64,000 nucleotides of DNA from a virus: the UHGV virus genome UHGV-0348865; one strand, 5' to 3'. This document shows positions 35,404-51,616 of the stretch, one piece after another. The notes beneath the pieces are model-generated. The model was not told the DNA's origin. It ran no database searches and saw nothing but the letters and a program-made list of their open reading frames with translations. The position numbers and the translations under genes are program-made. Each line of letters opens with the position of its first letter. Positions within the stretch are counted from its first letter, which is position 1.

Positions 35404-35431
35404 TTGACAGTCTTTTCCTTTATTATATAGT
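35404..35431 (+). promoter_or_regulatory. sigma70-like early promoter (TTGACA-16-TATAGT)
   Basis: Perfect -35 hexamer and near-consensus -10 about 40 nt upstream of the 35470 gene; a second TTGACA lies directly downstream. Confidence 0.5.
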
Positions 35432-36803: not shown

Positions 36804-36879
36804 GCTTAATCTTTCTCCTGTATTGTGCCGTGGTCATGCCTATGGTCATAATCTATCTGATGCTCTAAATCCTTCCTGT

Positions 36880-36908
36880 AAGCCTCCTAGTGAGGCTTTT
36901 CTCTTTTC
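36880..36908 (+). terminator. rho-independent terminator
   Basis: AAGCCTC-CTAGT-GAGGCTT followed by TTCTCTTTTC, about 75 nt after the stop of the 36438-36803 gene. Confidence 0.6.
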
Positions 36909-37189
36909 TAAGGTGATTGTATGCCTTACTCCCTTTTAGTTCGCTGTAGTGCGTTTTAGACCGCTCATTATTTCTTTACAAGCCGTTTTCTATGATGTAC
37001 CGCGTGCGTGCGCTCTTTTACCTTCCTATAGTGAAAAAGTTTAAAATATTTTGCTTTACCCTATTGTATCCCTCACTGGTTAATGTATACTTCATTTCAT
37101 CGGGTACGATGTAAAACATACAAGGCAAGGAAACTTGCCCCGCTCTTTAAAAATCAGGCAAGAAAGTGAAAATATTCTTAAAAAGAGTA

Positions 37190-37218
37190 TTGACACCAGA
37201 AAAAGCCTGATATATAGT
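37190..37218 (+). promoter_or_regulatory. strong sigma70-like promoter (TTGACA-17-TATAGT), first of three in tandem
   Basis: Consensus -35, 17-bp spacer, TATAGT -10, preceded by an A-rich UP-like tract. Confidence 0.55.
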
Positions 37219-37334
37219 GAGCATAAGTCAGCGATGACGTGAAATATCCCGCTCTTTAAAAACTTATCATCTTGCCCTTTCGCATAGATTCAAGCGAGAT
37301 AAGGGAACGGAATAAAAGAAGATGATAAAAAGAG

Positions 37335-37362
37335 TTGACAAGCTAACACGGTGTGTTAAGCT
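37335..37362 (+). promoter_or_regulatory. sigma70-like promoter (TTGACA-16-TAAGCT), second of three
   Basis: Consensus -35 with a weaker -10; same AAAAAGAG upstream context as the first promoter. Confidence 0.4.
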
Positions 37363-37492
37363 ACAAATGCAGTAACCGCTCTTTAAAAATATGAATCATA
37401 AGTTAAGCCTCACCGCTTAATCTTCAATCAAATATAGCTGATTGATATATCCTCCCAATAAGGGGAGCGACGAAAAAAGATTAAAAAAGTGG

Positions 37493-37521
37493 TTGACAGC
37501 TAAAACAGCATGATTCATAAT
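37493..37521 (+). promoter_or_regulatory. strong sigma70-like promoter (TTGACA-17-CATAAT), third of three
   Basis: Consensus -35, 17-bp spacer, CATAAT -10, A-rich upstream tract. Confidence 0.55.
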
Positions 37522-38445
37522 GAGCACTCACTAAGCAAATCATCGCTTCAGTGAAAAGCGTAACAACGGCTAACAGTTGCATAGTGTGAGAAAGCACACT
37601 GATAGATTTACCGCTCTTTAATAATTTAAACATTCTCCTATATCGGTTGAATATGTTAGATGATAATAACCATCGGATAACATACCAGATAAAACGGCGT
37701 AAAACTCCCTAAATTATCAGGGTAAACAGGTTTACATTCCCTTACTGGAAACGTCACCACTGATAAACGGATTCATTGAGTGCACGCAAAGACTTAAGCT
37801 AATCGCCCACGGTTAAGGGTAGCGGCGGCTATCGCTAACAAGGCGCTACAGTGAAAGAAGTTAATCAGGGTAGGCAAGTCCGAAGAATTAACGCCCAATT
37901 GAGGGCGGCGGGGAGTGGTTAAAAAGTGGCAAATTGCTATTTAACAATAAGGTTTAGTGTGAACGTTTACGATGTGAACGGCTTGAGATTCATCACAAGA
38001 TGAAAGTACATAGTCGGTTTATGTAGTAAACTTGCCGAAAGATATAAAACGTCAGAACATTAGACGGTCAATGACTCTTTCACAATAGCATCCCGTTGTG
38101 GGCGATGGCTAGTGATTGAGAGTTGATACAAAAGGATAGGCGAGAGCGAAAGCAAAGTAGACGATATTGCCGACGGTTACAATAAACGTAACTAATTAGA
38201 GTCGGACGCACTGCCTTATTGTGATGATTGATCATCGCTATCAGGTCGGCTTGGTTTATAGCGACTAATTAAAGATACCAGATGAAACATCACAGATAAG
38301 GGGGCGGCAAGGTTAACTCCTGATAAGACCGCCCCGCTTATCAATAATTACTTAACAATGAGTGATTATCGATAAGTCAATAGTGACTTAAAAAGCTCAT
38401 AGCGAGCGGGGGCAATAGTGCCCTTACAATTGAAAGGTGAATATC

Positions 38446-39367: not shown

Positions 39368-39405
39368 AAGGCGCTATCTTAACGGGTAGCGCCTTTTCTT
39401 TTATC
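39368..39405 (+). terminator. rho-independent terminator
   Basis: AAGGCGCTA-loop-TAGCGCCTT followed by TTCTTTTAT. Confidence 0.65.
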
Positions 39406-40850: not shown

Positions 40851-40876
40851 AGCCGCCTTTGAGCGGCTTTTTGCGT
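40851..40876 (+). terminator. rho-independent terminator
   Basis: AGCCGCC-TTTGA-GCGGCT followed by TTTTGCG. Confidence 0.5.
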
Positions 40877-40935: not shown

Positions 40936-40963
40936 GCCCCGGCTACGGCTGGGGCTTTTTTAT
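40936..40963 (+). terminator. rho-independent terminator
   Basis: GCCCCGGC-TACG-GCTGGGGC followed by TTTTTTAT. Confidence 0.65.
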
Positions 40964-42302: not shown

Positions 42303-42528
42303 TATTAAATCTGATCGTACAATGCTTCGATTAAATAATATGAAGCCGGGGGTTCTGTTTGAGCGTAAAGAATCCCTTTATATTAGAACCGACACATTGT
42401 ACGCAGACAATTATGTCAACTGTGTTGATGTGGTAACTGGAAAGCTCATGCCTTTTAAACGGGATGAAATTTGCCAAGTACGCAGCGATCTCCACATAAC
42501 TAACATAGAGACTAAAGATGAAGATTGA
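42292..42528 (+). CDS. small paralogous early protein family member (divergent)
   Basis: GTG start after AGGAGA; pattern PGVLF...Y...CVDVVTGKL matches the family consensus. Confidence 0.4.
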   Translation: MKVNIKSDRTMLRLNNMKPGVLFERKESLYIRTDTLYADNYVNCVDVVTGKLMPFKRDEICQVRSDLHITNIETKDED

Positions 42529-42769
42529 TCTTGAGTTTAAGAATCCAGAGCTGAAAGTAGGTGATTTGAAACTTGGAGATGTATTCCAAGTGAAGGCAAC
42601 ATGTATTGACCATTACATGATTGTCCAGCTATACACACCACATGTGTCAGAGACTGATCTTCGGAATGGTTGTGTAGTACTTAGTTTAAATACCAATCAA
42701 GTAATGAAGCTAGACTCAAACTTACCTGTTTCGGTTATCCATAATGTAGTAATTACCAATCGGAAGTGA
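42518..42769 (+). CDS. small paralogous early protein family member
   Basis: LKLGDVFQV ... CVVLSLNTNQV family pattern; overlaps its neighbours by a few nt. Confidence 0.5.
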   Translation: MKIDLEFKNPELKVGDLKLGDVFQVKATCIDHYMIVQLYTPHVSETDLRNGCVVLSLNTNQVMKLDSNLPVSVIHNVVITNRK

Positions 42770-42984
42770 TTATGAACATTGAAAAGAAGGTTGCTGATGA
42801 GGCTGTTCAGTTGCGATCTCTTGAAACACATGATGTATTTGTGTGGAGAGGTAGCCTGTTTCAGAAATCTGCCTATGCTGTAGAGGGCGGGGTTCGTTGT
42901 TTTAATATCCTTAACAACGAGATGCAAATCCTTCCTAACTTCGCTCATGTTAATAAGTTAGTTCATCTAACCATCAATCAATAA
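42766..42984 (+). CDS. small paralogous early protein family member (divergent)
   Basis: ETHDVFVW ... CFNILNNEM pattern. Confidence 0.45.
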   Translation: MIMNIEKKVADEAVQLRSLETHDVFVWRGSLFQKSAYAVEGGVRCFNILNNEMQILPNFAHVNKLVHLTINQ

Positions 42985-42994
42985 AGGTAAGTAG

Positions 42995-43213
42995 ATGGAA
43001 ATTAAAGTAGTTGATTATCCTAAATATGCAAATGCAGAAGACGTTAAAGGTGGTGATGTTTTCTCTTACGACAGACGTTTCTGGCTGATGTTAGAAGATA
43101 AAACTCCCGATGGTTTGTGTAAGGCCGCTAACCTGAACAGTGGTTCTGTTGAAGTCTTCGGTCTATCAACCACTGTTATGCCACGTCCTGATCTGTGTTT
43201 ATCCCAAAAGTAA
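42995..43213 (+). CDS. small paralogous early protein family member
   Basis: VKGGDVFSY ... AANLNSGSVEV pattern. Confidence 0.5.
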   Translation: MEIKVVDYPKYANAEDVKGGDVFSYDRRFWLMLEDKTPDGLCKAANLNSGSVEVFGLSTTVMPRPDLCLSQK

Positions 43214-43335
43214 CACCGACTTATAGCCCTTGTGTTTATCAGAGGGCTATGTGAGGGTGTTCCTCATTAACTTATTAATTCAGGCATATGCCACACCGCT
43301 AGGGAGAGCTTGCTCGAACATCCGGTGTTAGACTA
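43214..43335 (+). repeat. conserved about 120-nt intergenic element, copy 1 (hairpin + GCTAGGGAGAG + CTCGAACATCCG boxes)
   Basis: Shares ACTTATAGCC-[stem-loop]-GGGCTATGTGAG, GCTAGGGAGAG and CTCGAACATCCG with the copy at 49663-49790; the inner stem differs while the outer stem is conserved. Confidence 0.5.
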
Positions 43336-43571
43336 AAACCTGTTAATTTTCGAAAGACTTTCCGATATGTAGGGGTACGTATTGGTTTGGGATTCAGGAG
43401 ACTTCCTAGGGGTAGGGAGTCTTCACCAGTTGGGATAAGAGATAGCTCTAGAACCTGAACTCTTAGGCAGAGAAGGTCGGCAATGAGTACGCGGTCAGGG
43501 TTAGTCTACTGACTAGGGCTATCCCTTATATCAACTGGCAATAATGCCTCCACTAACAAAGAGAGATAGGT

Positions 43572-43712
43572 ATGAAAGTATCAACCAAACGTATGAACCG
43601 CCCTGAACGTATGGATGCAGTAGCTAATGGTGCTCTGAAACTGGAAGGCTTCTGGATTCATGCAATGTCAGCCATTCGTAACAAGCAAGGCAATTGGACC
43701 TATGCCGGTTAA
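43572..43712 (+). CDS. hypothetical small protein (46 aa)
   Basis: Below the track cutoff; its stop overlaps the ATG of the next gene; coordinates approximate. Confidence 0.3.
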   Translation: MKVSTKRMNRPERMDAVANGALKLEGFWIHAMSAIRNKQGNWTYAG

Positions 43713-43911
43713 AACAGTTCATGTAATAGGTATGCGAGAGATCATTCGCATTGCCTTGATGGAACACACTGATCGCAACGCTCAACTAACGCAAATCTCT
43801 AAGTGTCTTAACTGCTCAAGAGATGTGGCTAAGGAGTTGATGTTCGCATTCCTTTATAATGCAGAAGACGAGATGCTACAGAATCATCTGATTCGTGGTG
43901 TGAGTCAATAA
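43702..43911 (+). CDS. hypothetical small protein
   Basis: Internal Met (MPVKTV) chosen as start because of the overlap with the upstream small ORF; terminator follows. Confidence 0.4.
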   Translation: MPVKTVHVIGMREIIRIALMEHTDRNAQLTQISKCLNCSRDVAKELMFAFLYNAEDEMLQNHLIRGVSQ

Positions 43912-43916
43912 AGAAA

Positions 43917-43946
43917 GGCTGCCTTCGGGCGGCCTTTGTTGTTTTA
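43917..43946 (+). terminator. rho-independent terminator
   Basis: AGGCTGCC-TTCG-GGCGGCCT followed by TTGTTGTTTT. Confidence 0.65.
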
Positions 43947-43989
43947 ATTAAGGGACAACTCTTACTTAAACTAACAAGAGGAAGCTAAA

Positions 43990-44166
43990 ATGTCTAAGCA
44001 AACAATCAAACATACTCAAGCTGGTTACTCTTATGTCAACTCCCCTTGCTGCGGTGCTCGTATTAGTCTGGTTAAGGAAGAGGTTCGTATCGTTCAGCGT
44101 GGCGCTACTGTTGTTCGTGCATGCTGTGTATGTGGTAATGATATTTTCATTAAAGGTAAAGTATGA
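43990..44166 (+). CDS. small zinc-ribbon protein (58 aa)
   Basis: AAGAGGAAG RBS; two Cys pairs (SPCCG ... CCVCG); stop overlaps the next ATG; below the track cutoff. Confidence 0.45.
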   Translation: MSKQTIKHTQAGYSYVNSPCCGARISLVKEEVRIVQRGATVVRACCVCGNDIFIKGKV

Positions 44167-44387
44167 TTATCGTTCGCTCTGAGCCTAAAGATAACACTTT
44201 TGGCAGCCTCCGTAATGGTGATGTGTTCTCTCTAGAGATAGACGGGGATACAAAACCTCCTTTATATATGAAGGTTATGCACAGACATGCTATCTGTATA
44301 AATAACCCTGAAACAAGATTTACATTTGATAGAAGTTGTCCTGTCAGATTTTATCAAGCTACCCTAAACGTCAGGAGAGTAGGATGA
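44163..44387 (+). CDS. small paralogous early protein family member
   Basis: LRNGDVFSL ... family N-terminal pattern. Confidence 0.5.
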   Translation: MIIVRSEPKDNTFGSLRNGDVFSLEIDGDTKPPLYMKVMHRHAICINNPETRFTFDRSCPVRFYQATLNVRRVG

Positions 44388-44635
44388 AAAACTTCCAAGC
44401 TGCACCAATCACTAAAGTGATCGAAGTTGACGGTGTGATGATGACTGTTCCTCTGAATACCCGTCACATTGCGATTGATAAGATGGGATATGTGTGGGCT
44501 TGGAAGATTAAGCCCTCTTACAATGAACTCTTTGATGAGTTTGTTTGCACTGGCACATATAGCCCTACGTTCTTGGGTATCTTTGAAGATTTCAAAGGCA
44601 AGCCTAAGATTATCACACTCCCTGCATGTGCTTGA
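44384..44635 (+). CDS. hypothetical small protein
   Basis: Start at internal Met (MKNFQ) with AGGAG upstream. Confidence 0.4.
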   Translation: MKNFQAAPITKVIEVDGVMMTVPLNTRHIAIDKMGYVWAWKIKPSYNELFDEFVCTGTYSPTFLGIFEDFKGKPKIITLPACA

Positions 44636-44642
44636 GGTTGTT

Positions 44643-44897
44643 ATGAAAGTTTCTAAACGCTGGGCAATATTTGGAGAGATTCAAATAGGTGGTGAGATTA
44701 GGAGTGGAAGCTCCCAACTTGTAGCAGTGTTTGACTCTTATCCAACAGAAGAGTTCCTTATGAAGCTTTCTATTCCTGAACCTCGAAAGAAGGATGTAAT
44801 TAAGCGCATTCTGGAAAGGGGTGTAGGTTTCTGGAAAGAGGATTGGTACTCTAAAGGCTATATACTCAGAGAGATTGATTATGTTCAAATGGTTTAA
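44643..44897 (+). CDS. hypothetical small protein
   Basis: Start at internal Met (MKVSKRW) after GAGG. Confidence 0.4.
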   Translation: MKVSKRWAIFGEIQIGGEIRSGSSQLVAVFDSYPTEEFLMKLSIPEPRKKDVIKRILERGVGFWKEDWYSKGYILREIDYVQMV

Positions 44898-45045
44898 ACG
44901 TCTCGTGCATCTGCACGATTGGGTAATCCTTGAAAAATATTCTCTGAGGATTACCGATGATTGTGGCGGGACAAAGCACAAAGGTCTCCGCTATATCATG
45001 CAGTGTAAAGTGTGTGGTAGTATTACCTATCGTGACATTATTTAA
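44881..45045 (+). CDS. small Cys-containing protein (54 aa)
   Basis: Overlaps the upstream stop; CGG ... CKVCG pattern; below the track cutoff; coordinates approximate. Confidence 0.3.
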   Translation: MFKWFKRLVHLHDWVILEKYSLRITDDCGGTKHKGLRYIMQCKVCGSITYRDII

Positions 45046-45078
45046 ATAAATCTGCGCTCTTAGCTCAACGGAGGGGTT

Positions 45079-45507
45079 TTGAAGATAGAGTTAGAATACC
45101 CCTTCGTCAATGACTGGCGATTGGGTTACTTAAGAACAAGTAGAGATGGTAGGAAGCGTGTTGATTTGTACAACTCCGACACGGAAAGGACAACCATTTC
45201 TTACGCAAGATATTTAATGTCTTGTTATGTGGGTAGATACTTAACTTCAGAGGAAGAGGTTGATCATATTGATCAGGACTCAACCAATGATGAGATTTCC
45301 AACTTACAGATTCTAAGTATCAGTGAACATTTAGAGAAGACATTAAAACATAGGGTTAAGGGTGCAGTATCAATCTTGACTTGTGCCAACTGTGGTGTAC
45401 TTTTCGAACGGAGAGAAAATAAAATACACAAAAAGAATCAGAATTATTTTTGTAGCAGATCTTGCAACGGTAAGTATTACTGGAGCAATGGTTTCAATAA
45501 CAAATGA
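45079..45507 (+). CDS. HNH endonuclease (homing-endonuclease-like)
   Basis: HNH core EVDHIDQDSTNDEISNLQIL plus a C-terminal Cys cluster (CANCG ... CSRSC); immediately 5' of the tRNA-like element. Confidence 0.6.
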   Translation: MKIELEYPFVNDWRLGYLRTSRDGRKRVDLYNSDTERTTISYARYLMSCYVGRYLTSEEEVDHIDQDSTNDEISNLQILSISEHLEKTLKHRVKGAVSILTCANCGVLFERRENKIHKKNQNYFCSRSCNGKYYWSNGFNNK

Positions 45508-45518
45508 GAGTTCTTAAT

Positions 45519-45597
45519 GGGGGTGTACCTCACCCGTCTTCTAAACGGGCGTTAATCGAGTAATTGGAGTATGCAGGTTCGAGTCCTGTCTCCCCCT
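45519..45597 (+). ncRNA. tRNA-like element (non-canonical; anticodon-like hairpin with UCU plus T-arm)
   Basis: Hairpin CCCGT-CTTCTAA-ACGGG (7-nt loop, U33/A37-like positions, UCU centre); T-arm GCAGG-TTCGAGT-CCTGT; GGGGG...CCCCC closing helix. Spacing does not fit a standard cloverleaf. Confidence 0.3.
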
Positions 45598-45620
45598 CTA
45601 AGAACTCTTGGAGAATGTTT

Positions 45621-45944
45621 ATGTTTAAAAAAGTATTATTACTATGTACTCTCTCACTAAGCCCTCTGGTTATGTCAGCTGATTTGAATTTCCTAGATGG
45701 GTCTTCCTCTTATTTAAAAAGAGAGAGAGGTTTGGTTAACAGTAGAACTCCTGATGAGGGATATTTTGTTGGATATACAACCTCCACTACACGAAATATT
45801 GCTAATTGTAGCTCATCGGGAACCTTAAACAAAGTTGTGTGGGAGGTTGTTGCTTTATACATTGAACAGCATCCTGAGAGACGTCATCTAAGCAATGATG
45901 ATCTTATCATAGAGGCTGTAAACAACGCTTGGTGTAATAAATAA
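45621..45944 (+). CDS. secreted protein with cleavable signal peptide
   Basis: Start at the ATG after GGAGA; signal peptide MFKKVLLLCTLSLSPLVMSA followed by a polar mature domain. Confidence 0.55.
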   Translation: MFKKVLLLCTLSLSPLVMSADLNFLDGSSSYLKRERGLVNSRTPDEGYFVGYTTSTTRNIANCSSSGTLNKVVWEVVALYIEQHPERRHLSNDDLIIEAVNNAWCNK

Positions 45945-45960
45945 ACCATAGGAGGTGCTT

Positions 45961-46242
45961 ATGAGTTGGGGTGGTGTAATATCCTTAATCTGTATCTTCC
46001 TTGTCTGTGTGGCCCTTACAGGCTGCGTACAGAGCCGTCCTGATGGATGGTGTGCATTATCTGTTGAAGGTGTGTGCGTATCTCGTTGGCATAAGGGTGA
46101 GAAGGTTCCTTCTGGTGAAATTGATATGCGTTACAGTGGTATCTCATGCCTGAATGGTGCAGCAGTAGATGAGGAGACTAAAACCTTGTCAGATGCGCAG
46201 TGGTGTGGTGGCTCTGTAACAACAACCGGTAAGGAGTGGTAA
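45961..46242 (+). CDS. putative lipoprotein (lipobox LTGC), Cys-rich
   Basis: AGGAGG RBS; N-terminal hydrophobic segment ending in ALTGC; several further Cys in the mature part. Confidence 0.55.
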   Translation: MSWGGVISLICIFLVCVALTGCVQSRPDGWCALSVEGVCVSRWHKGEKVPSGEIDMRYSGISCLNGAAVDEETKTLSDAQWCGGSVTTTGKEW

Positions 46243-46243
46243 C

Positions 46244-46492
46244 ATGACAGCTCATTATTGGAATACAAAGAAGCTCCTTGAAGAGATGGCTGGAGTTAGT
46301 AAGTTCCAGTTAAATTCCATGCTTCGAATGGATGCTCGCTCTTTACGCTTCCAAGTAAAGATTGGTAACTTCAGCGATGGCCTTTACTACACACTGAAGG
46401 AAAGGATTAAGAAGACTCACTTCATCATATATGGACTCAAACCGAGAACATATGTTAACTACATGTATTGGGATACATGCTACGATAATTGA
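46244..46492 (+). CDS. hypothetical small protein
   Basis: 82-aa ORF; contains a CGCTCTTT copy. Confidence 0.4.
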   Translation: MTAHYWNTKKLLEEMAGVSKFQLNSMLRMDARSLRFQVKIGNFSDGLYYTLKERIKKTHFIIYGLKPRTYVNYMYWDTCYDN

Positions 46493-46499
46493 GGTTATT

Positions 46500-46721
46500 A
46501 TGAAACTAGACTCTAAGCAGTCACTTAAAACCGTTGAGCTGTCCACGCTGCCAAACGGAAGTATTTTTGGTCATGATAAACACTTCTGGATTAAAACAGA
46601 CATCATAAACGATGGATATATCACCTGTGTCAATCTTTGGAACGGCTCAGTGGATGGTTATCGCCCTAGCACAAAGGTGGTCCCTCAGCCTGATGCTAAG
46701 GCTGTAGGTTTAGTTTACTAA
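46500..46721 (+). CDS. small paralogous early protein family member
   Basis: Start at internal Met after GAGG; LPNGSIFGH ... CVNLWNGSV pattern. Confidence 0.5.
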   Translation: MKLDSKQSLKTVELSTLPNGSIFGHDKHFWIKTDIINDGYITCVNLWNGSVDGYRPSTKVVPQPDAKAVGLVY

Positions 46722-46730
46722 GGAGTTCAT

Positions 46731-46904
46731 ATGAGCTGTTATGGTGGCGGTGAAGTATACGATGACGATGATATGGAATCTAACGATACATGCCCTGATT
46801 GTGGGTGCGAAACATTTGATGGAGTGTCAGTATATCCTACCTGTAGTTATTCACCAGTGATCTGTAAAACATGTGGAGATCAACCTTGTGATGAGTCTTG
46901 TTAG
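46731..46904 (+). CDS. small acidic Cys-rich protein (57 aa)
   Basis: AAGGAG RBS; Cys pairs CPDCGC ... CKTCGDQPC; below the track cutoff. Confidence 0.4.
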   Translation: MSCYGGGEVYDDDDMESNDTCPDCGCETFDGVSVYPTCSYSPVICKTCGDQPCDESC

Positions 46905-47133
46905 TGTGTTAATAGCCTATCTGATAGGATCAGTAGTATCAGGTGTTCTGATTAAGATTATAGATGTTAAAGGAAATCAGTGTTTCCGAGATTGGGATGG
47001 TGAGCCAGACCTCGGAAAGATAGCAGCTATGGTTTTCTTGTGGCCTATTATTGCTGTACTATTTATAGCACTCGTAGCATGGGCTGCTCTTTGGGATTTC
47101 ATCCTTCCTAACAAAAAGTATGAGGACTCATGA
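46891..47133 (+). CDS. small membrane protein (two predicted TM segments)
   Basis: Hydrophobic stretches LVSVLIAYLIGSVVSGVLI and MVFLWPIIAVLFIALVAWAAL; start ambiguous (GTG 46873 or ATG 46891). Confidence 0.45.
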   Translation: MSLVSVLIAYLIGSVVSGVLIKIIDVKGNQCFRDWDGEPDLGKIAAMVFLWPIIAVLFIALVAWAALWDFILPNKKYEDS

Positions 47134-47734
47134 CTAAAGAATTTTTAGAGTGGTTTGGTGATACCTTCAAAGAGTATCTATTCTCTCCAGAAGACTTTGA
47201 AGAACTGAAAACCTACACTTGGTTGGCTTGGAGAGATAGCCGACGAGAGATGAATAAGTAATATCGTGAAGGATTCTTACGAGAGTCCTTTGAGATAGGA
47301 CTTCAGATCTCCTATCAAACTAACATTCATGTAACTAGCCCATAAGGGCGTTACCCTTTAATAACCCAGCCCACTAAGGGGGCGGGAGTTTAGTGCTGGA
47401 TTAGCATAACGCTTATTCCTACAAAGGCAACCGATTGTTAGATCTTACATGCAATATTAATTAATAGGATATGGGAGGGTTCGTCCCCTCCCCCTATTTA
47501 TAAATTATCAGGAGAGTGCATTAGCTGATTAGCTGTAGAAGGGAGGCCGATACTACAGTGTGGCCCAGAGCTAGTGTACTCTCCTGATGAGGCACCTCCT
47601 CATCGTGGTAAGCTGTGGAATGATCTTTACAGTAGTTACTTGAAGTAGCCTGTACGGCCCTCAGCAAAGAGTCCGGACGATATCTGAGTGACTTTAAAAA
47701 CAGATGGAGCCAGGTGGAATCCCTGGCAATTAAT

Positions 47735-47878
47735 TACAGGTATAGCTTATGTGACCCAGTAATGCAGAGTCTACGGTAAAGCAGTCGCCCGTGGTCGAAT
47801 GACCGTATGCCCATTGGATGCATTCCTTTGGTGATGGCTAGGGAGTCCGAGCGTAGGTTCGAATCCTACACCTGTAAT
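47735..47878 (+). ncRNA. structured RNA-like element with tRNA-type T-arm and 8-bp closing helix
   Basis: 3' end GTAGG-TTCGAAT-CCTAC immediately followed by ACCTGTAA, complementary to TTACAGGT about 140 nt upstream; too long for a plain tRNA. Confidence 0.3.
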
Positions 47879-47908
47879 CAAATTGAATAATATCTAATTG
47901 GAGGATGT

Positions 47909-48220
47909 ATGAAAGCACGAAGAACTATATGGACTCCGATGCAGATTGAAAATCTTCGGAGACTAATCAAAGAGTACTCGGTTCAAGAAGTTGCTCAGAT
48001 CATGAATGTAACGGAGAATGCCGTTAACACAGCTTGCACTAAGTTTGGTATATCAAGAGCTTCAATCCGAGTTAAGTGGTCTAAAGAAGAAGATCAGTTC
48101 CTTATCCGTAATGCTGGGTTCATGCCTATCCAGAGAATGGCTGACATGCTCGGTAGAAGTTATGCTGCTGTGCAGAACAGGGCATGTATGCACCTTAACA
48201 TTAGCCTAAAACTTAAATAG
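47909..48220 (+). CDS. DNA-binding protein with two HTH-like repeats
   Basis: Two internally repeated segments (WTPMQIENLRRL...VAQIMNVTENAV and WSKEEDQFLIRN...MADMLGRSYAAVQNR); GGAGGA RBS. Confidence 0.5.
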   Translation: MKARRTIWTPMQIENLRRLIKEYSVQEVAQIMNVTENAVNTACTKFGISRASIRVKWSKEEDQFLIRNAGFMPIQRMADMLGRSYAAVQNRACMHLNISLKLK

Positions 48221-48228
48221 GAATCAAT

Positions 48229-48474
48229 ATGAAGATCATCCCAAAGATTAAAGATAACACTGTTTCACTGGCTACAATTATTCCCGGAAACCCTTTCGTA
48301 GTTCAGAGAGGAACAGCATCTCCTCAGTATTACATCCGTGTCAGTAACGTGTCCAACAAAATCTCTGTAGAAGAGGGTTGGATTACGACAGTAAATCTAC
48401 TGACTGGTGTACTGGGTGTTATGAAAAGTGATGCCCCAGTTGAAGTGATTCGTATGTCTGTGGTTCAGGAGTAA
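48229..48474 (+). CDS. small paralogous early protein family member
   Basis: IPGNPFVVQ ... TTVNLLTGVLGV pattern. Confidence 0.5.
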   Translation: MKIIPKIKDNTVSLATIIPGNPFVVQRGTASPQYYIRVSNVSNKISVEEGWITTVNLLTGVLGVMKSDAPVEVIRMSVVQE

Positions 48475-48481
48475 TAAGTAG

Positions 48482-48730
48482 ATGAGCACCATTAATATTA
48501 AAGTTAAGCATAAGAAAGAGAACATCCTCAGGGTTATGGATTTATTCAGAGCCGACGTCTTTACTTTAAAACAGTGTCCAACTTCCCATACCTACATGCT
48601 AACGAACCCGAGCAATGGTCTTAAGCCCGCTGGGGCGGTTAATCTGGGAACTGGAGAACTTCGGACAATTGCTGGTGATATGGTTGTTGATGAGAAGTTT
48701 AGTAAAGTCGAAATGATCTTGACTCCTTAG
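48482..48730 (+). CDS. small paralogous early protein family member
   Basis: RADVFTLK ... AGAVNLGTGELRT pattern. Confidence 0.5.
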   Translation: MSTINIKVKHKKENILRVMDLFRADVFTLKQCPTSHTYMLTNPSNGLKPAGAVNLGTGELRTIAGDMVVDEKFSKVEMILTP

Positions 48731-48867
48731 GAAAACAAATGAGACTTAAAGCATATTCTTATGACGATATGATTAACCAAAAAGGCTTCGGTCAACGACA
48801 GCCTGACGGTTCAATTATCTGGTTCGTAAATGGACAGAAAAAGGTAGCTAAATAAGCCCTCTTCTCT

Positions 48868-48915
48868 CCTCCTTTTAGTACTATGACGCCTCTCTGTGGG
48901 CGGCCCAATTTGCGT
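48868..48915 (+). repeat. conserved TTTTAGTACTATGACGC element, copy 2
   Basis: CTCCTTTTAGTACTATGACGCCTCTCTGTGGGCGG; same intergenic context. Confidence 0.45.
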
Positions 48916-48961
48916 AGGGAATTCCCTCTACGCAGCCATGACTTTTTAAGGAATTTCCCCT

Positions 48962-49195
48962 ATGTCTAAAGTAAGCGCAATCGATGCAATCCGTCAACCG
49001 TTCCAGTTCCAATCTAAATCAACCCAAACCTTCAGTGAGCCTAAGCAAATTCGCTTGGGTGGCACAGAGAAAACTGTGTTTGATCTGGCTAAAAACAAGA
49101 GTGTTACCGTGGTTGATGGTGGCACTCTGGTTAACGTTTCCCATCGTATCCGCACTGGCAAAACTGCCAAAGATCGTGCTAAGAAAGGTGAGTAA
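48962..49195 (+). CDS. hypothetical small basic protein
   Basis: 77-aa ORF; stop overlaps the next gene's ATG. Confidence 0.4.
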   Translation: MSKVSAIDAIRQPFQFQSKSTQTFSEPKQIRLGGTEKTVFDLAKNKSVTVVDGGTLVNVSHRIRTGKTAKDRAKKGE

Positions 49196-49437
49196 TGAAA
49201 ATAGGGAAACCAGCTAAGGATGTTCTAGCGAAGATTAGTGATATCTCTACTGGGGAAGTTTTCTCAGCAGAGCACTTTTCAAGTTACTACATGAAAATCC
49301 CTGACACTAAAGTAGAGGGTTGCATCATCCCTGCCAACGCAGTTAACCTGAACACAGGACATTTGTCTGCATTCAAACCTGATTCACAGGTTACTGAAAT
49401 CAAAGATGCCTACCTTGCCTTTGGTGGAGATAAATAG
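49195..49437 (+). CDS. small paralogous early protein family member
   Basis: STGEVFSAEH ... ANAVNLNTGHLSA pattern. Confidence 0.5.
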   Translation: MKIGKPAKDVLAKISDISTGEVFSAEHFSSYYMKIPDTKVEGCIIPANAVNLNTGHLSAFKPDSQVTEIKDAYLAFGGDK

Positions 49438-49438
49438 C

Positions 49439-49654
49439 ATGATAACACTCGTGTCTGTCGTTTACAGATTACACTACCGTCTGGATAAAGGAAAATCCTA
49501 TAAATGCAAGAGTAAGACAGGGAATCGATGCTCTGTAGAGAACAACTCTGGTCAATGGGTGGATGTTCCTTGTTGCTGGTTCAGGAAAGATTTGACTAGC
49601 AAAGAGATTGACGAAATTCTTAGTGATGATTTTGTAAAATCAGGCGATTTTTAG
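49439..49654 (+). CDS. hypothetical small Cys-containing protein
   Basis: Start moved to the internal ATG just after the upstream stop; CKSKTGNRC ... PCC pattern. Confidence 0.4.
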   Translation: MITLVSVVYRLHYRLDKGKSYKCKSKTGNRCSVENNSGQWVDVPCCWFRKDLTSKEIDEILSDDFVKSGDF

Positions 49655-49662
49655 ATAGAGTG

Positions 49663-49790
49663 ACACTTATAGCCTTCCCTCCGGAGGGCTATGTGAGTTA
49701 TTCTGACTCAACTAACCTAATCTTAATATATTTCCCGTATGGGGCCGATGCTAGGGAGAGGAATAATCCTCGAACATCCGTCGGATAGAT
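49663..49790 (+). repeat. conserved about 120-nt intergenic element, copy 2
   Basis: Same three boxes as 43214-43335; palindromic inner stem CCCTCCGGAGGG. Confidence 0.5.
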
Positions 49791-49893
49791 ATTTTAAGAG
49801 CAGGTTATCCACAGATATTGGGTAATATCTTTTTTTGAATTTAAAGCTTGGCTCTTTTCGGAGAGTCCTTTTTTAAATTCAATGAGAGGAAAT

Positions 49894-50422: not shown

Positions 50423-51616
50423 ATGTTTCCAGTAACATTAGAAGATACTGAAGGTAATGTTTTAACGGTCAACCCTCCTTGTTATGGGTTCCTTCAGCTT
50501 CGCAACTATAATGGTGGCGTTGATGAAGACGACGAAGATGATGACTACTTCGACCCTAACATGTATGAGGCAACTCATGGATGGAATATGCACGTTCGAG
50601 TGTGGCATAAAGAAGCCAACGTTCGTAGTGCTGACGGGGAAGAATTCTTGTTAAGCCGAGAGATGGATATGTGTAAAATCAAGCATATCTGGAACTCCGG
50701 AACTCATATGAAGATGTTAGGTTTTAGACGTTGGCGTGATGAAAAACCTGTATCCGCAGCTTTAGGTTGGGGTGCAATTGATCACGAAGGCGAGCTTAAA
50801 AATAACATTGAGCACTGGAACGACAAAAACCCTGAACATCGAACCACACCTCGTGCTGTACTGGAAGCTATGGAAGCATTTGTGGACAAAGATCGTCCCT
50901 CCTGTTTACGCTGGCACGAGAAAGGTTTTATGGGGGTAGCAACTGAGAACGTTCCTGCTGATCGTTGTCTGTTCTATTTGATGTTAGACCGAACCTTCTA
51001 TTGTGAAGATGAAGAGAGTCAAGTTGAAACCTTCCTTCATAAATGGTTGGTTGAAGGTTGGACAATCCTTCAAGCTTATGTCTACTCACGAATGGTTAGC
51101 ACTCACACTAACCTCTTGGGAGAAAAGAAAGCAACTCTGGTTGGTAACGATTGGGATGCTTGTATTTTCCCAGCGTCACTATTTACGGTTGGCATGGCTG
51201 ATAAATATGCCGAAGCATTTAAAGTGCCTTGGCGTCAACAGTCATATAGAGATGGTTGTGGTCACTTTCGTGATGAAGACTTTAAGTGGATTCATTATGA
51301 GAATGATGAAACAGCAGAGCTACGAGTGAACAACTCAATGTTCTTGCCGGTTATGCACCCTGATCTAGTAAAAGATGAGTCAGAAATACTCAAAGGTGAC
51401 AACCTTCTGGTTACCTTTGCTCGTCGGGTATCTAAAGATGAAAGAACAGCTGACAGATTAGTCTACGCTTATCGCGCTGAGACTAAAGATATGTTCAATA
51501 TTTATAATATTGTTCAGCGATTCAGTAGCGGAACTCTGGACCAAAGTTCGGAGTATTCAGTGATTCCGTCCTCTGAGTGGGATGGTATTATGAGCGGATT
51601 ATTTTTAGGAAAATAA
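50423..51616 (+). CDS. hypothetical protein, first gene of the amidoligase-type cluster
   Basis: 397 aa with an acidic N-terminal run (DEDDEDDDYFD); tightly packed with the downstream genes. Confidence 0.45.
   Translation: MFPVTLEDTEGNVLTVNPPCYGFLQLRNYNGGVDEDDEDDDYFDPNMYEATHGWNMHVRVWHKEANVRSADGEEFLLSREMDMCKIKHIWNSGTHMKMLGFRRWRDEKPVSAALGWGAIDHEGELKNNIEHWNDKNPEHRTTPRAVLEAMEAFVDKDRPSCLRWHEKGFMGVATENVPADRCLFYLMLDRTFYCEDEESQVETFLHKWLVEGWTILQAYVYSRMVSTHTNLLGEKKATLVGNDWDACIFPASLFTVGMADKYAEAFKVPWRQQSYRDGCGHFRDEDFKWIHYENDETAELRVNNSMFLPVMHPDLVKDESEILKGDNLLVTFARRVSKDERTADRLVYAYRAETKDMFNIYNIVQRFSSGTLDQSSEYSVIPSSEWDGIMSGLFLGK

What the first reader, a model, noticed from the sequence alone, without database searches (positions are those of the whole stretch)
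43214..43335. Conserved structured intergenic element in two copies, possible RNA processing or regulatory site
Seen in sequence: the intergenic regions at 43214-43335 and 49663-49790 share ordered boxes ACTTATAGCC...GGGCTATGTGAG, GCTAGGGAGAG and CTCGAACATCCG. The outer stem TATAGCC/GGCTATG is conserved while the inner stem differs (TTGTGTTTATCAGA versus TTCCCTCCGGAGGG), a covariation-like pattern suggesting a conserved structure. Both copies directly follow a member of the paralogous small-protein family. Inference: RNase III-type processing sites, as between T7 early genes, or binding sites for a phage regulator.
Basis: partly seen in the sequence, partly recalled or inferred. Interest (0 to 1): 0.6.

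Follow-up and report, generated by a model that had tools for sequence, protein, structure and literature searches.

The report
Two-copy structured RNA, phage early operon
Two stretches between early genes of this phiEco32-like coliphage are copies of a conserved folded RNA that is in no RNA catalogue (hairpins plus a three-way junction with an invariant non-Watson-Crick loop); it probably marks or controls the early transcript, but that job is unproven.

Summary
The window is a phiEco32-like podophage (Kuravirus), and both regions lie on the coding strand of its sigma70-driven early operon. The two copies match far above chance (local score 58 against 17±3 in shuffles). They occur in all ~100 related phage records. 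The second type also occurs in Salmonella 7-11-like phages, and one copy lies on an unrelated metagenomic phage contig. Rfam and ARAGORN find nothing there.

Covariation supports a larger RNA than the finding describes:
- a stop-codon-abutting hairpin (P1ext/H1) that competes with a small hairpin (H2);
- a three-way junction (P-LR, H3, H4) whose arm H4 carries an invariant 7x7 internal loop;
- one loop position pair seen only as A/G, C/A or A/A, which fits a sheared pair.

Copy 1 continues into about 230 nt of further covarying hairpins. Copy 2 ends in a conserved intrinsic terminator.

The conserved core is not a long duplex, so a plain T7-style RNase III site does not explain the family. RNase III action on the P1ext/H1 arm is not excluded. 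My best guess, at about 0.35, is a cis-acting factor-binding "punctuation" module on the early transcript. Function remains experimentally open. This is a new RNA family of a familiar general kind.

The parts
43211..43220 (+). Copy 1: stop codon UAA (43211-43213) of ORF 42995-43213, lying inside the conserved 5' edge AAGUAACACC. AACACC (43212-43217) is the 5' strand of P1ext, which pairs with GGUGUU at 43256-43261.
   Evidence: In 33 of 34 distinct copies an upstream ORF ends 3-12 nt before H1, and different upstream genes all end AAG-UAA. P1ext shows C-G / U-A / U-G changes and is 100% paired.
43221..43251 (+). Copy 1 H1 hairpin: UAUAGCCCUU / AGAGGGCUAUG with a variable apex.
43252..43266 (+). 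Copy 1 H2 hairpin (UGAGG-GUGUU-CCUCA). Its loop is the 3' strand of P1ext, so H2 and P1ext are alternative folds.
   Evidence: The H2 pairs covary in copy-2-type sequences.
43267..43292 (+). Copy 1 A/U-rich linker (the candidate 5' strand of the junction-closing helix, AUUAAC) and H3 (GGC-AUAU-GCC).
   Evidence: H3 changes GGC/GCC to GCC/GGC in Suseptimaviruses. The closing helix is only weakly supported in copy 1 (by eye, from the alignments).
43293..43328 (+). Copy 1 H4: Pa stem ACACCG/CGGUGU, invariant 7x7 internal loop CUAGGGA / GAACAUC, Pb stem GAG/CUC, CUUG loop.
   Evidence: 98.6% of cells paired, 6 pairs changed on both sides, 0 of 500 shuffles reach the score. Loop position pair X/Y is A/G 20, C/A 14, A/A 2 over 36 distinct copies.
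43329..43571 (+). Copy 1 extension. It holds the junction strand and GUUAAU (43342-43347), H5 (43362-43385; 10 bp, GGGG loop), H6 (43397-43424; 12 bp, loop in CUAGGGGUAG), P7 (CAGUU/AACUG, 43427-43537) enclosing a swappable insert, H8 (43537-43548), and then the RBS and start codon of ORF 43572.
   Evidence: RNAalifold on 15 sequences. 98.8% of cells paired, 7 pairs changed on both sides, 0 of 500 shuffles.
49652..49710 (+). Copy 2 5' domain: stop codon UAG (49652-49654); P1ext (49656-49664 with 49697-49705); H1 (49667-49693); H2 (49694-49710), which is alternative to P1ext.
49713..49807 (+). Copy 2 three-way junction. The closing helix P-LR pairs UAACCU..UCUUAA (49713-49726) with UUAAGA..AGGUUA (49794-49807). 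It encloses H3 (49734-49743) and H4 (49745-49784), which carries the invariant loop CUAGGGA / GAACAUC.
   Evidence: The same fold is predicted independently for the window and for phage 7-11. Consensus fold. P-LR helix b has 3 pairs changed on both sides.
49808..49880 (+). Copy 2 tail: conserved UCCACAG, hairpin H5' (49813-49830, followed by a U run in Kuraviruses) and the conserved extended intrinsic terminator T2 (49837-49880; core 49850-49874).
   Evidence: T2 is kept in all 20 distinct copy-2-type sequences, including the 7-11-like phages, and is annotated as a terminator in SU7 and 7-11.

Best explanation
Both regions are copies of one transcribed, + strand structured RNA family embedded in the long sigma70-driven early operon of phiEco32-like phages. 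Each copy starts at the stop codon of an upstream small ORF. It has two domains. The first is a hairpin arm (P1ext+H1) that a terminating ribosome would melt and that competes with a small hairpin, H2. The second is a three-way junction whose long arm, H4, displays an invariant, largely non-Watson-Crick 7x7 loop. I think it most likely acts in cis as a 'punctuation' module of the early polycistronic transcript. In this model the H4 loop is a docking site for a trans factor, either a host protein or enzyme or a phage protein. Binding then decides what happens to the RNA at that point: endonucleolytic processing with the 5' hairpins left as a 3' stabiliser of the upstream message, and, for copy 2, how much transcription passes the conserved terminator into the downstream delayed-early genes. 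Shown here: the sequence family, its fold, the functional strand, and its position relative to stop codons and terminators. Inferred only: that the RNA is bound by a factor, that it is processed, and that it affects read-through.
For: 1. The window is a Kuravirus. The elements lie on the gene strand, downstream of strong sigma70 promoters at 35404, 37190 and 37493, in a region described as early and sigma70-transcribed in PMC4281155 and PMC12276001.
2. Copy 1 is present in 99 phage records and the copy-2 type in 104. Between Kuravirus and Suseptimavirus copy 1 stays 85-88% identical, while a protein encoded downstream of copy 2 (ORF 50423-51616) drops to 41%.
3. Covariation supports the fold: H3+H4 98.6% paired with 6 doubly changed pairs; the whole copy-2 type 95.7-96.7% paired with 11-12 doubly changed pairs; the whole copy-1 type 98.8% paired with 7 doubly changed pairs. 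In every case 0 of 500 shuffles reach the covariation score, and slid controls collapse to 35-54% paired.
4. The loop position pair X/Y occurs only as A/G, C/A or A/A in 36 distinct copies and switches in several lineages.
5. Strand evidence: there are many G-U pairs, and the + strand folds to -81.0 kcal/mol (z -5.6) against -63.2 (z -3.7) for the complement.
6. The region is not coding: 2-nt indels occur in the H1 apex.
7. Stop codons lie 3-12 nt before H1 in 33 of 34 copies.
8. Terminator T2 follows every copy-2-type element. No comparably strong sigma70-like promoter (at most 9/12 matches) follows on the + strand until about 62 kb, so downstream genes depend on read-through.
9. The same H4 core lies in an otherwise unrelated phage early region, L060.
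Against: There are no transcript-end, cleavage or binding data. No partner was identified. Only two copies serve more than 50 early genes. Three strong terminator-like hairpins (39368, 40851, 40936) lie upstream of copy 1 and cannot be governed by it. Copy 1 and L060 have no terminator directly behind them. No conserved alternative pairing links the element to T2; the candidate AAGAGC/GCUCUU pairing is lost in 7-11 (by eye). A syntenic candidate in L068 has the same hairpin layout but a different loop sequence, and it matches only weakly (9.3 bits, E 0.31). The L060 genes use Shine-Dalgarno sites, so its 'Flavobacterium' host label is doubtful, and the argument for a universal partner is correspondingly weak.
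Confidence: 0.35

Rival explanations
1. Plain RNase III processing signals like those between T7 early genes. The interrupted hairpin P1ext+H1 is recognised as dsRNA and cut, separating the upstream message and leaving it with a protective 3' hairpin.
For: The element is intercistronic in an early polycistronic operon. In copy 2 and in 7-11, P1ext+H1 gives about 21 bp in two roughly 10-bp halves around a small internal loop. P1ext shows a compensatory change in copy 1.
Against: The duplex is shorter in copy 1 (6 + 10 bp) and in L060 (about 12 bp). In Suseptimavirus copy 2, P1ext carries a mismatch, while the competing H2 has two doubly changed pairs. RNase III needs no invariant loop, yet the most conserved part is the three-way junction and the H4 loop. 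Only two sites exist in about 14 kb of early genes.
Confidence: 0.15
2. A transcription antitermination signal. Either it is an RNA that itself modifies RNA polymerase, as HK022 putL/putR do, or it is a nut-like site for a phage or Nus factor, making polymerase read through the terminators that interrupt the early operon.
For: There are two paralogous structured copies in early transcripts, as with putL/putR (PMC9378689). The early operon holds several intrinsic-terminator-like hairpins on the + strand. Copy 2 sits 50-100 nt before T2 in every genome, and the genes beyond T2 lack a comparably strong promoter. The loop is rich in non-canonical pairs, as in put RNA.
Against: The copies lie 6-12 kb from the promoters, behind three strong terminators. 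The architecture is a three-way junction plus hairpins, unlike the two-stem put RNA. The boxA-like GCUCUUU lies inside T2 and is not kept in 7-11. Copy 1 and L060 have no nearby terminator.
Confidence: 0.15
3. Genes for stable trans-acting non-coding RNAs. They would be cut out of the early transcript, with copy 2 ending at T2 like a 3'-UTR-derived sRNA, and would act on a host or phage target or sequester a protein.
For: Sequence conservation resembles that of tRNA-like genes, with copy 1 at 99% identity or more in 40 records. Neighbouring intergenic slots in these phages hold RNA genes: tRNA-Arg in phiEco32 and SU7, and a tmRNA-like plus a tRNA-like gene in 7-11. Copy 2 ends in a U-rich stretch plus a terminator. 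Copy 1 together with its extension is a compact array of about 350 nt of hairpins.
Against: No promoter of its own is conserved: the sigma70-like match at 49703-49732 is lost in Suseptimavirus and 7-11. Copy 1 runs straight into the RBS of the next gene. No target or seed region was identified.
Confidence: 0.15
4. A ligand-sensing riboswitch or a new self-cleaving ribozyme built on the three-way junction and its invariant loop.
For: Invariant loop nucleotides flanked by covarying stems in a three-way junction are typical of aptamers and ribozymes. Copy 2 is followed by a terminator. There are no Rfam matches, so it would be a new class.
Against: Downstream genes differ between copy 1, copy 2, 7-11 and L060. 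No conserved mutually exclusive pairing with the terminator was found. Nothing points to a cleavage site.
Confidence: 0.07
5. A DNA-level element: a conserved linker for homologous recombination between gene cassettes, or part of a replication origin (a DnaA box lies next to copy 2).
For: Different upstream genes are fused to the same AAGUAAC edge, which is a mosaic junction. A perfect TTATCCACA at 49805-49813 is conserved even in 7-11.
Against: Compensatory changes, strand-specific G-U pairs and the restricted non-canonical X/Y pair indicate a folded single strand. DnaA boxes are not enriched, with 5 found against 3.3 expected. Half of the box is explained by P-LR helix a. The GC-skew minimum lies at about 35 kb, not at the elements.
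Confidence: 0.05

Closest known systems
T7 early-region RNase III processing signals (R0.3-R1.3)
   Same: Structured, mutually similar elements in the intercistronic spaces of a host-RNAP-transcribed early operon of a lytic podophage. The hairpin lies directly behind the upstream cistron. Copy 2 has an interrupted hairpin of about 21 bp.
   Different: Here there are only two copies. The conserved core is a three-way junction with an invariant non-Watson-Crick loop, not a duplex. The duplex arm competes with another hairpin that also covaries. Cleavage is untested. The comparison with T7 rests on my general knowledge, not on a tool result.
HK022 putL / putR antiterminator RNAs
   Same: Two paralogous copies of a folded RNA in early transcripts, with many non-canonical pairs. 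Terminators lie downstream and must be passed (PMC9378689).
   Different: put RNAs are about 70 nt, have two stems and lie close to the promoters. These elements are 125-230+ nt, have a three-way junction, lie kilobases downstream, and start at a stop codon. No sequence relation was shown.
Lambda nutL / nutR (boxA + boxB)
   Same: Duplicated RNA signals in early operons that could dock a factor on the transcript or on the polymerase.
   Different: There is no conserved boxA, no boxB-like small hairpin with a GNRA-like loop, and no identifiable N-like protein.
Mosaic boundary elements such as T4 promoter-early stem-loops (PeSL)
   Same: A conserved non-coding stem-loop block at the junctions where gene cassettes differ between related phages.
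   Different: There is no promoter in the block. The structure is far more elaborate, and covariation indicates selection on the fold itself.
Orphan structured RNA motifs of phages and metagenomes in Rfam
   Same: A covarying multi-stem motif of unknown function, found by comparative analysis.
   Different: None of the 4227 Rfam 15 models matches these elements, even at E up to 10.

Membership tests
T7-type RNase III processing signal | Hairpin of about two helical turns (around 20 bp or more) of dsRNA, often interrupted by an internal loop | tested here: inconclusive
   Copy 2 and 7-11 have 9+1+11 bp. Copy 1 has 6+10 bp. L060 has about 12 bp. The arm competes with H2.
T7-type RNase III processing signal | Located between cistrons of an early polycistronic transcript | tested here: met
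T7-type RNase III processing signal | Cleaved by host RNase III in vivo and in vitro | not testable with these tools
   Needs rnc mutants or purified enzyme.
HK022 put antiterminator RNA | About 70 nt, two stem-loops, shortly downstream of an early promoter | tested here: not met
   The elements are a three-way junction plus hairpins, and lie 6-12 kb downstream of the promoters at 37190 and 37493.
HK022 put antiterminator RNA | Makes RNA polymerase terminator-resistant without protein factors | not testable with these tools
   Only the arrangement 'element, then terminator T2, then genes without a strong promoter' is seen.
Lambda-type nut site | boxA (CGCUCUUA-like) followed by a small boxB hairpin | tested here: not met
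   The only boxA-like string (GCUCUUU) lies inside T2 of Kuraviruses and is absent in 7-11. There is no boxB-like hairpin.
Any Rfam 15 family (including riboswitches, ribozymes, tRNA, tmRNA, 6S, Y RNA) | Match to the family's covariance model | tested here: not met
   No hit on either element at the gathering threshold or at E up to 10. ARAGORN finds nothing.
Riboswitch | Conserved aptamer, an expression platform with mutually exclusive pairing, and functionally coherent downstream genes | tested here: not met
   An aptamer-like junction is present. No conserved alternative pairing with T2 exists (by eye), and downstream genes differ.
The new family itself (H3+H4 model R1) | H3 hairpin, Pa stem, CUAGGG[A/C] / [G/A]AACAUC loop, GAG/CUC stem | tested here: met
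   Both window copies score 64-77 bits. There are two copies per Kuravirus or Suseptimavirus locus, one in 7-11 and one in L060. None is found in the GAP52 region. The look-alike at 47734-47877 is not hit.

The most novel reading that the evidence does not exclude
The three-way junction with its invariant non-canonical loop is a self-sufficient functional RNA of a new class. It would be either a protein-independent modifier of host RNA polymerase, a second example of put-type RNA antitermination with an unrelated fold, or a new self-cleaving ribozyme that punctuates phage early transcripts. In both versions a ribosome terminating on the built-in stop codon would toggle the P1ext/H2 switch.
Probability: 0.12. 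Interest if true: 0.8.

Novelty: new variant of a known kind. Interest (0 to 1): 0.55.

Why it matters
phiEco32-like phages are a model for phage takeover of host transcription and are used in phage-therapy collections, yet their early operon is described only in terms of promoters and proteins. This element is among the most conserved sequences of the early region, it is absent from Rfam, and it comes with a well-supported secondary structure. It also has a cleanly testable feature: the X/Y non-canonical pair and the stop-codon-linked alternative fold. If it controls processing or read-through into the delayed-early genes, it would add an RNA layer to the temporal programme of these phages. 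Per the literature those genes include the sigma70 inhibitor gp79. If it binds a host factor, it would give a compact new RNA-protein recognition motif.

Tried and rejected
1. Known RNA families: Rfam at gathering threshold and at E up to 10, and ARAGORN, give nothing on the elements.
2. A third copy at 47734-47877 (UAUAGCUUAUGUGA ... CCGUAUG ... GGCUAGGGAG ... UUCGAAUCC, a tRNA-like T-arm plus acceptor): model R1 does not hit it, and its local alignment to copy 1, copy 2 or the 7-11 copy is within the shuffle range. Homology is not supported.
3. Promoter: no convincing -35 lies upstream of TATAGC. The sigma70-like match at 49703-49732 is not conserved. There is no match to the phage-sigma motif AATGTA quoted in PMC12276001 and PMC4281155.
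4. Coding or read-through extension: 2-nt indels in the H1 apex and loop-length changes rule this out.
5. DnaA box or origin: not enriched and partly explained by helix P-LR; the skew minimum is elsewhere.
6. Pseudoknots between the H4 loop strands and the H1/H2 loops, K-turn, sarcin-ricin/loop-E and 11-nt receptor readings of the loop: none is consistent across copies (by eye). The apparent similarity to 23S rRNA segments involves strands that do not face each other there (from memory).
7. A riboswitch-type antiterminator (AAGAGC/GCUCUU) is lost in 7-11.
8. CRISPR I-F repeat mimicry of H3: the stem is too short and the feature is absent in copy 1.
9. A shared protein partner: all-against-all BLASTP of L060 against the window and 7-11 found only an Srd-like protein shared with 7-11 and two marginal hits.
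10. Wider family search: pattern scans of IMG/VR added no new lineages.
11. Experimental literature: the phiEco32 papers PMC3275717 and PMC2587145 are not held. The 7-11 transcription paper does not mention these regions.

Full report
**Identity of the window and setting.** Megablast of both regions finds about 100 Escherichia and Shigella podophages of the phiEco32 group (Kuravirus and Suseptimavirus, Gordonclarkvirinae) at 85-97% identity. In phiEco32 the homologous stretch is the leftward-transcribed block of small genes 128 to 87. In the window these genes lie on the + strand, downstream of near-consensus sigma70 promoters at 35404, 37190 and 37493. The literature describes this block as early and transcribed by host sigma70 holoenzyme from promoters in the long spacer (PMC4281155; PMC12276001).

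**Checking the observation.**
- The quoted boxes are present in order in both regions and occur nowhere else in the window without mismatch.
- The local alignment score of the two regions is 58. Two thousand dinucleotide shuffles give 17.2 +/- 3.0 and none reaches 58.
- Copy 1 is found in 99 phage records, at 99% identity or more in 40 of them. The copy-2 type is found in 104 records, including 6 Salmonella 7-11-like phages.
- Between Kuravirus and Suseptimavirus copy 1 remains 85-88% identical, while a 397-aa protein encoded downstream of copy 2 (ORF 50423-51616) falls to 41%.

**What the sequence folds into.** I aligned 15, then 27, distinct copies from phiEco32, SU7, Bas88, Bas93, ECBP2, KBNP1711, NJ01, metagenomic contigs and 7-11-like phages.
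- The two 3' boxes are the two strands of one hairpin, H4. It has a 6-bp stem Pa, a symmetric 7x7 internal loop (CUAGGG[A/C] and [G/A]AACAUC), a stem Pb (GAG/CUC plus 0-2 pairs) and a variable loop.
- On that alignment 98.6% of cells are paired and 6 of 11 pairs show changes on both sides. No shuffle in 500 reaches the covariation score, and sliding the partners drops pairing to 27-47%.
- The loop position next to Pb occurs as A/G (20), C/A (14) or A/A (2) in 36 distinct copies, and never as anything else. It switches independently in copy 1, in copy 2 and in the 7-11 lineage.
- From my recollection of base-pair isostericity, these three combinations belong to the sheared (trans Hoogsteen/sugar-edge) family. 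If so, the loop would begin with a tandem G-A / A-G stack on Pb. That reading is an inference.
- H3, a 3-4-bp hairpin with an RUAU loop, changes from GGC/GCC to GCC/GGC or to CCC/GGG.

**The full copy-2-type fold.** Single-sequence folding of the window copy and of the 7-11 copy gave the same architecture independently. RNAalifold on 20 distinct sequences agreed.
- A 5' arm comes first: P1ext (AGAGURAC/GUUAUUCU) stacked on H1 (UAUAGCC.../...GGCUAUG), about 21 bp in all.
- An alternative small hairpin, H2 (UGAGN...NCUCA), uses part of the P1ext 3' strand.
- A long-range helix, P-LR (UAACCU/AGGUUA and UCUUAA/UUAAGA), closes a three-way junction containing H3 and H4.
- The tail consists of UCCACAG, hairpin H5' and an extended intrinsic terminator, T2.
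- With P1ext the model is 95.7% paired with 11 doubly changed pairs. With H2 it is 96.7% paired with 12. No shuffle in 500 reaches either covariation score.
- H2 has two doubly changed pairs. P1ext has one doubly changed pair but a mismatch in Suseptimavirus. Both therefore seem to be under selection, which suggests a conformational alternative.

**The full copy-1-type fold.** P1ext (AACAYC/GRUGUU) shows C-G, U-A and U-G variants. The structured region continues for about 230 nt. It contains H5 (10 bp) and H6 (12 bp), both capped by UA-GGGG-UA. A helix P7 (CAGUU/AACUG) encloses hairpins that are swapped wholesale between phages. H8 follows, and then the RBS of the conserved 46-aa gene at 43572. 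The model is 98.8% paired with 7 doubly changed pairs, and no shuffle in 500 reaches the score.

**Strand and coding potential.** Many pairs are G-U on the + strand. The + strand of copy 2 folds to -81.0 kcal/mol (z -5.6), against -63.2 (z -3.7) for its complement. The H1 apex differs by 2-nt indels, so the region is not coding. The functional form is a + strand single strand, almost certainly the early transcript.

**Range of the family.**
- A pattern for the H4 core recovered only Kuraviruses from IMG/VR.
- In metagenomes and genomes it also recovered 7-11-like Salmonella phages (L042, L058; identified; 7-11 itself is L063).
- It further recovered one contig binned to a Flavobacterium MAG (L060) that has no nucleotide similarity to any deposited phage.
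- L060 is a phage early region. It carries an Srd-like 'decoy of sigma70' gene and many small ORFs. It shares that protein with 7-11. Its genes have Shine-Dalgarno sites, so the host label is doubtful.
- The L060 H1 and H2 are unrelated in sequence. H3, Pa (fully compensated), the loop (C/A form), Pb and a junction-closing helix are all present.
- A covariance model of H3+H4 finds exactly two copies per Kuravirus or Suseptimavirus locus, one in the 29-kb 7-11 region and one in L060. It finds none in the GAP52 region and no further copy in the window.
- A phage contig whose 446-aa protein is 41% identical to the L060 protein (L068) has a similar hairpin layout at the syntenic position. Its loop sequence differs and the match is weak (9.3 bits, E 0.31). 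The loop may therefore not be universal.

**Context.**
- In 33 of 34 distinct copies a real upstream ORF (36 to 155 open codons) stops 3-12 nt before H1. In the copy-1 type at least six different upstream genes all end AAG-UAA inside the conserved AAGUAAC.
- The 5' edge of the element is therefore both a mosaic junction and a built-in stop codon lying inside P1ext. A terminating ribosome must open P1ext and the base of H1.
- The upstream genes of copy 1 and of the copy-2 type in many phages, as well as 7-11 gp112, belong to one family of small proteins of about 75 aa. The family has at least 8 paralogues in the window and the motif G-[DE]-V-F.
- An AlphaFold model of one member (pLDDT 89) is an SH3-like barrel. 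Its best, and weak, PDB matches are domain I of EF-P and eIF5A (E 7.5e-3, TM 0.55).
- In this window an extra ORF, 49406-49654 (phrog_33631), separates the paralogue from copy 2.
- Every copy-2-type element is followed by T2, which is annotated as a terminator in SU7 and 7-11. No comparably strong sigma70-like promoter follows until about 62 kb.
- The conserved amidoligase / glutamine-amidotransferase / ATP-grasp module lies downstream in both Kuravirus and 7-11.
- The early operon also contains terminator-like hairpins at 39368, 40851, 40936, 43914 and 47473.

**Interpretation.** The data establish a new, phage-specific structured RNA family. They do not establish its function.
- A plain RNase III signal does not explain why the most conserved part is a junction with an invariant non-Watson-Crick loop. 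It also does not explain why the duplex arm is short in copy 1 and L060 and competes with H2.
- RNase III could still cut the P1ext/H1 arm of copy 2.
- A put-like or nut-like antitermination role fits the two-copy layout, the non-canonical loop and the terminator behind copy 2. However, the elements lie far from the promoters and behind three terminators, no boxA/boxB is conserved, and copy 1 and L060 lack a nearby terminator.
- A stable trans-acting RNA is plausible. Neighbouring slots hold RNA genes and conservation is tRNA-like. Against it, there is no conserved promoter, and copy 1 runs into the next gene's RBS.
- A riboswitch is unlikely, because downstream genes are heterogeneous and there is no conserved switch with T2. 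A ribozyme cannot be assessed here.
- DNA-level roles (recombination linker, origin with a DnaA box) are contradicted as the main function by compensatory and strand-specific changes. DnaA boxes are not enriched and the skew minimum lies elsewhere.
- I therefore commit, at about 0.35, to a cis-acting punctuation module: a factor-binding junction plus a stop-codon-linked hairpin arm that governs processing, stability and, at copy 2, read-through of the early transcript.

**Novelty.** No Rfam family matches. The phiEco32, SU10, SU7 and 7-11 papers I could read mention promoters and terminators but not these elements. Structured intercistronic signals in phage early operons are a known kind (T7 RNase III sites, nut, put). 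This one has a different architecture and no demonstrated membership in any of them. I therefore rate it 'new variant of a known kind'.

Noticed in passing
L063 (Salmonella phage 7-11, NC_015938.1 reverse complement) 2045-2755: A 700-nt non-coding region holds an unannotated tmRNA-like gene. Rfam tmRNA_permuted scores 29.6 bits, below its gathering score of 47, at 2318-2462. A textbook tag reading frame GCA AAT GAT AAT GCG TTC CGA GTA GCA GCT TAA encodes ANDNAFRVAA*. A T-arm plus ...GTCGTCCCACC lies at about 2600-2632. It is followed by a second tRNA-like gene ending TGCCCGCTCCA (about 2638-2722). ARAGORN calls neither. The region ends with the same RBS context (ACTAACAAAGAGAGAT) as the copy-1 extension in the window.
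   Followed up: partly
window 47505-47880 (tRNA-like part 47734-47877): An insertion of about 370 nt is absent from phiEco32, SU7 and Bas93. It ends in a tRNA-like structure: an 8-bp acceptor stem TTACAGGT/ACCTGTAA and a perfect T-arm GTAGG-TTCGAAT-CCTAC, but no D or anticodon arm. Neither ARAGORN nor Rfam calls it. It superficially shares three short blocks with the element, but the similarity is not significant.
   Followed up: partly
window 47262-47500: A third highly conserved non-coding block is nearly identical in phiEco32 and Bas93 and largely conserved in SU7. It ends in a GC-rich hairpin GGGAGGGTTCGTCCCCTCCC. It is probably another structured RNA and was not analysed further. There is a weak Rfam Clostridiales-2 match at 47459-47546 (22 bits, far below the gathering score).
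   Followed up: no
window 45519-45597, and ORF 45079-45507: Where phiEco32 and SU7 carry a normal tRNA-Arg(UCU), this phage has a different tRNA-like gene with another acceptor stem. It keeps the CUUCUAA anticodon loop, has 4 nt instead of a D arm, and has a 22-nt extra region. Rfam scores it 33 bits and ARAGORN does not call it. Directly upstream lies an ORF with an HNH_3 match (E 3.9e-5), which suggests replacement linked to a homing endonuclease.
   Followed up: partly
window 42518-49437 (ORFs 42518, 42766, 42995, 44163, 46431, 48229, 48482, 49195): At least eight paralogues of a small protein of about 75 aa (motif G-[DE]-V-F ... Y-M-K ... N-L-x-[TS]-G) lie in the early region. The AlphaFold model (pLDDT 89) is an SH3-like barrel weakly resembling domain I of EF-P and eIF5A. 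Function is unknown.
   Followed up: partly
window 39368-39395, 40851-40868, 40936-40955, 43914-43937, 47473-47492, 49813-49830, 49850-49874: The early operon is interrupted by an unusual number of + strand intrinsic-terminator-like hairpins: 21 sites on both strands in 19 kb, against 13.2 +/- 3.9 in shuffles. How polymerase passes them is not described in the papers I could read.
   Followed up: no
window 36804-38436: A 1.6-kb stretch has no long + strand ORF and contains two near-consensus sigma70 promoters (37190, 37493). Early transcripts therefore start with a leader of about 900 nt that was not examined for structure.
   Followed up: no
window 43362-43385 and 43397-43424: Two long hairpins in the copy-1 extension are both capped by the same UA-GGGG-UA apex (GUAGGGGUAC, CUAGGGGUAG). 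This echoes the CUAGGG of the H4 loop and the UUGGGUA loop of H5' in copy 2, and could be a repeated recognition motif.
   Followed up: no
L062 (CALKAR010000070.1) and L060 (JBOFGJ010000684.1): A contig binned to a 'Peptococcaceae' MAG is plainly Kuravirus DNA. The 'Flavobacterium' MAG contig L060 is a phage early region whose genes use Shine-Dalgarno sites. Both look like binning artefacts.
   Followed up: partly
window 49805-49813: A perfect DnaA-box consensus TTATCCACA lies between copy 2 and its terminator and is conserved in 7-11-like phages. Its first half is the 3' strand of helix P-LR, and boxes are not enriched in the window. The conserved UCCACAG part remains unexplained.
   Followed up: partly
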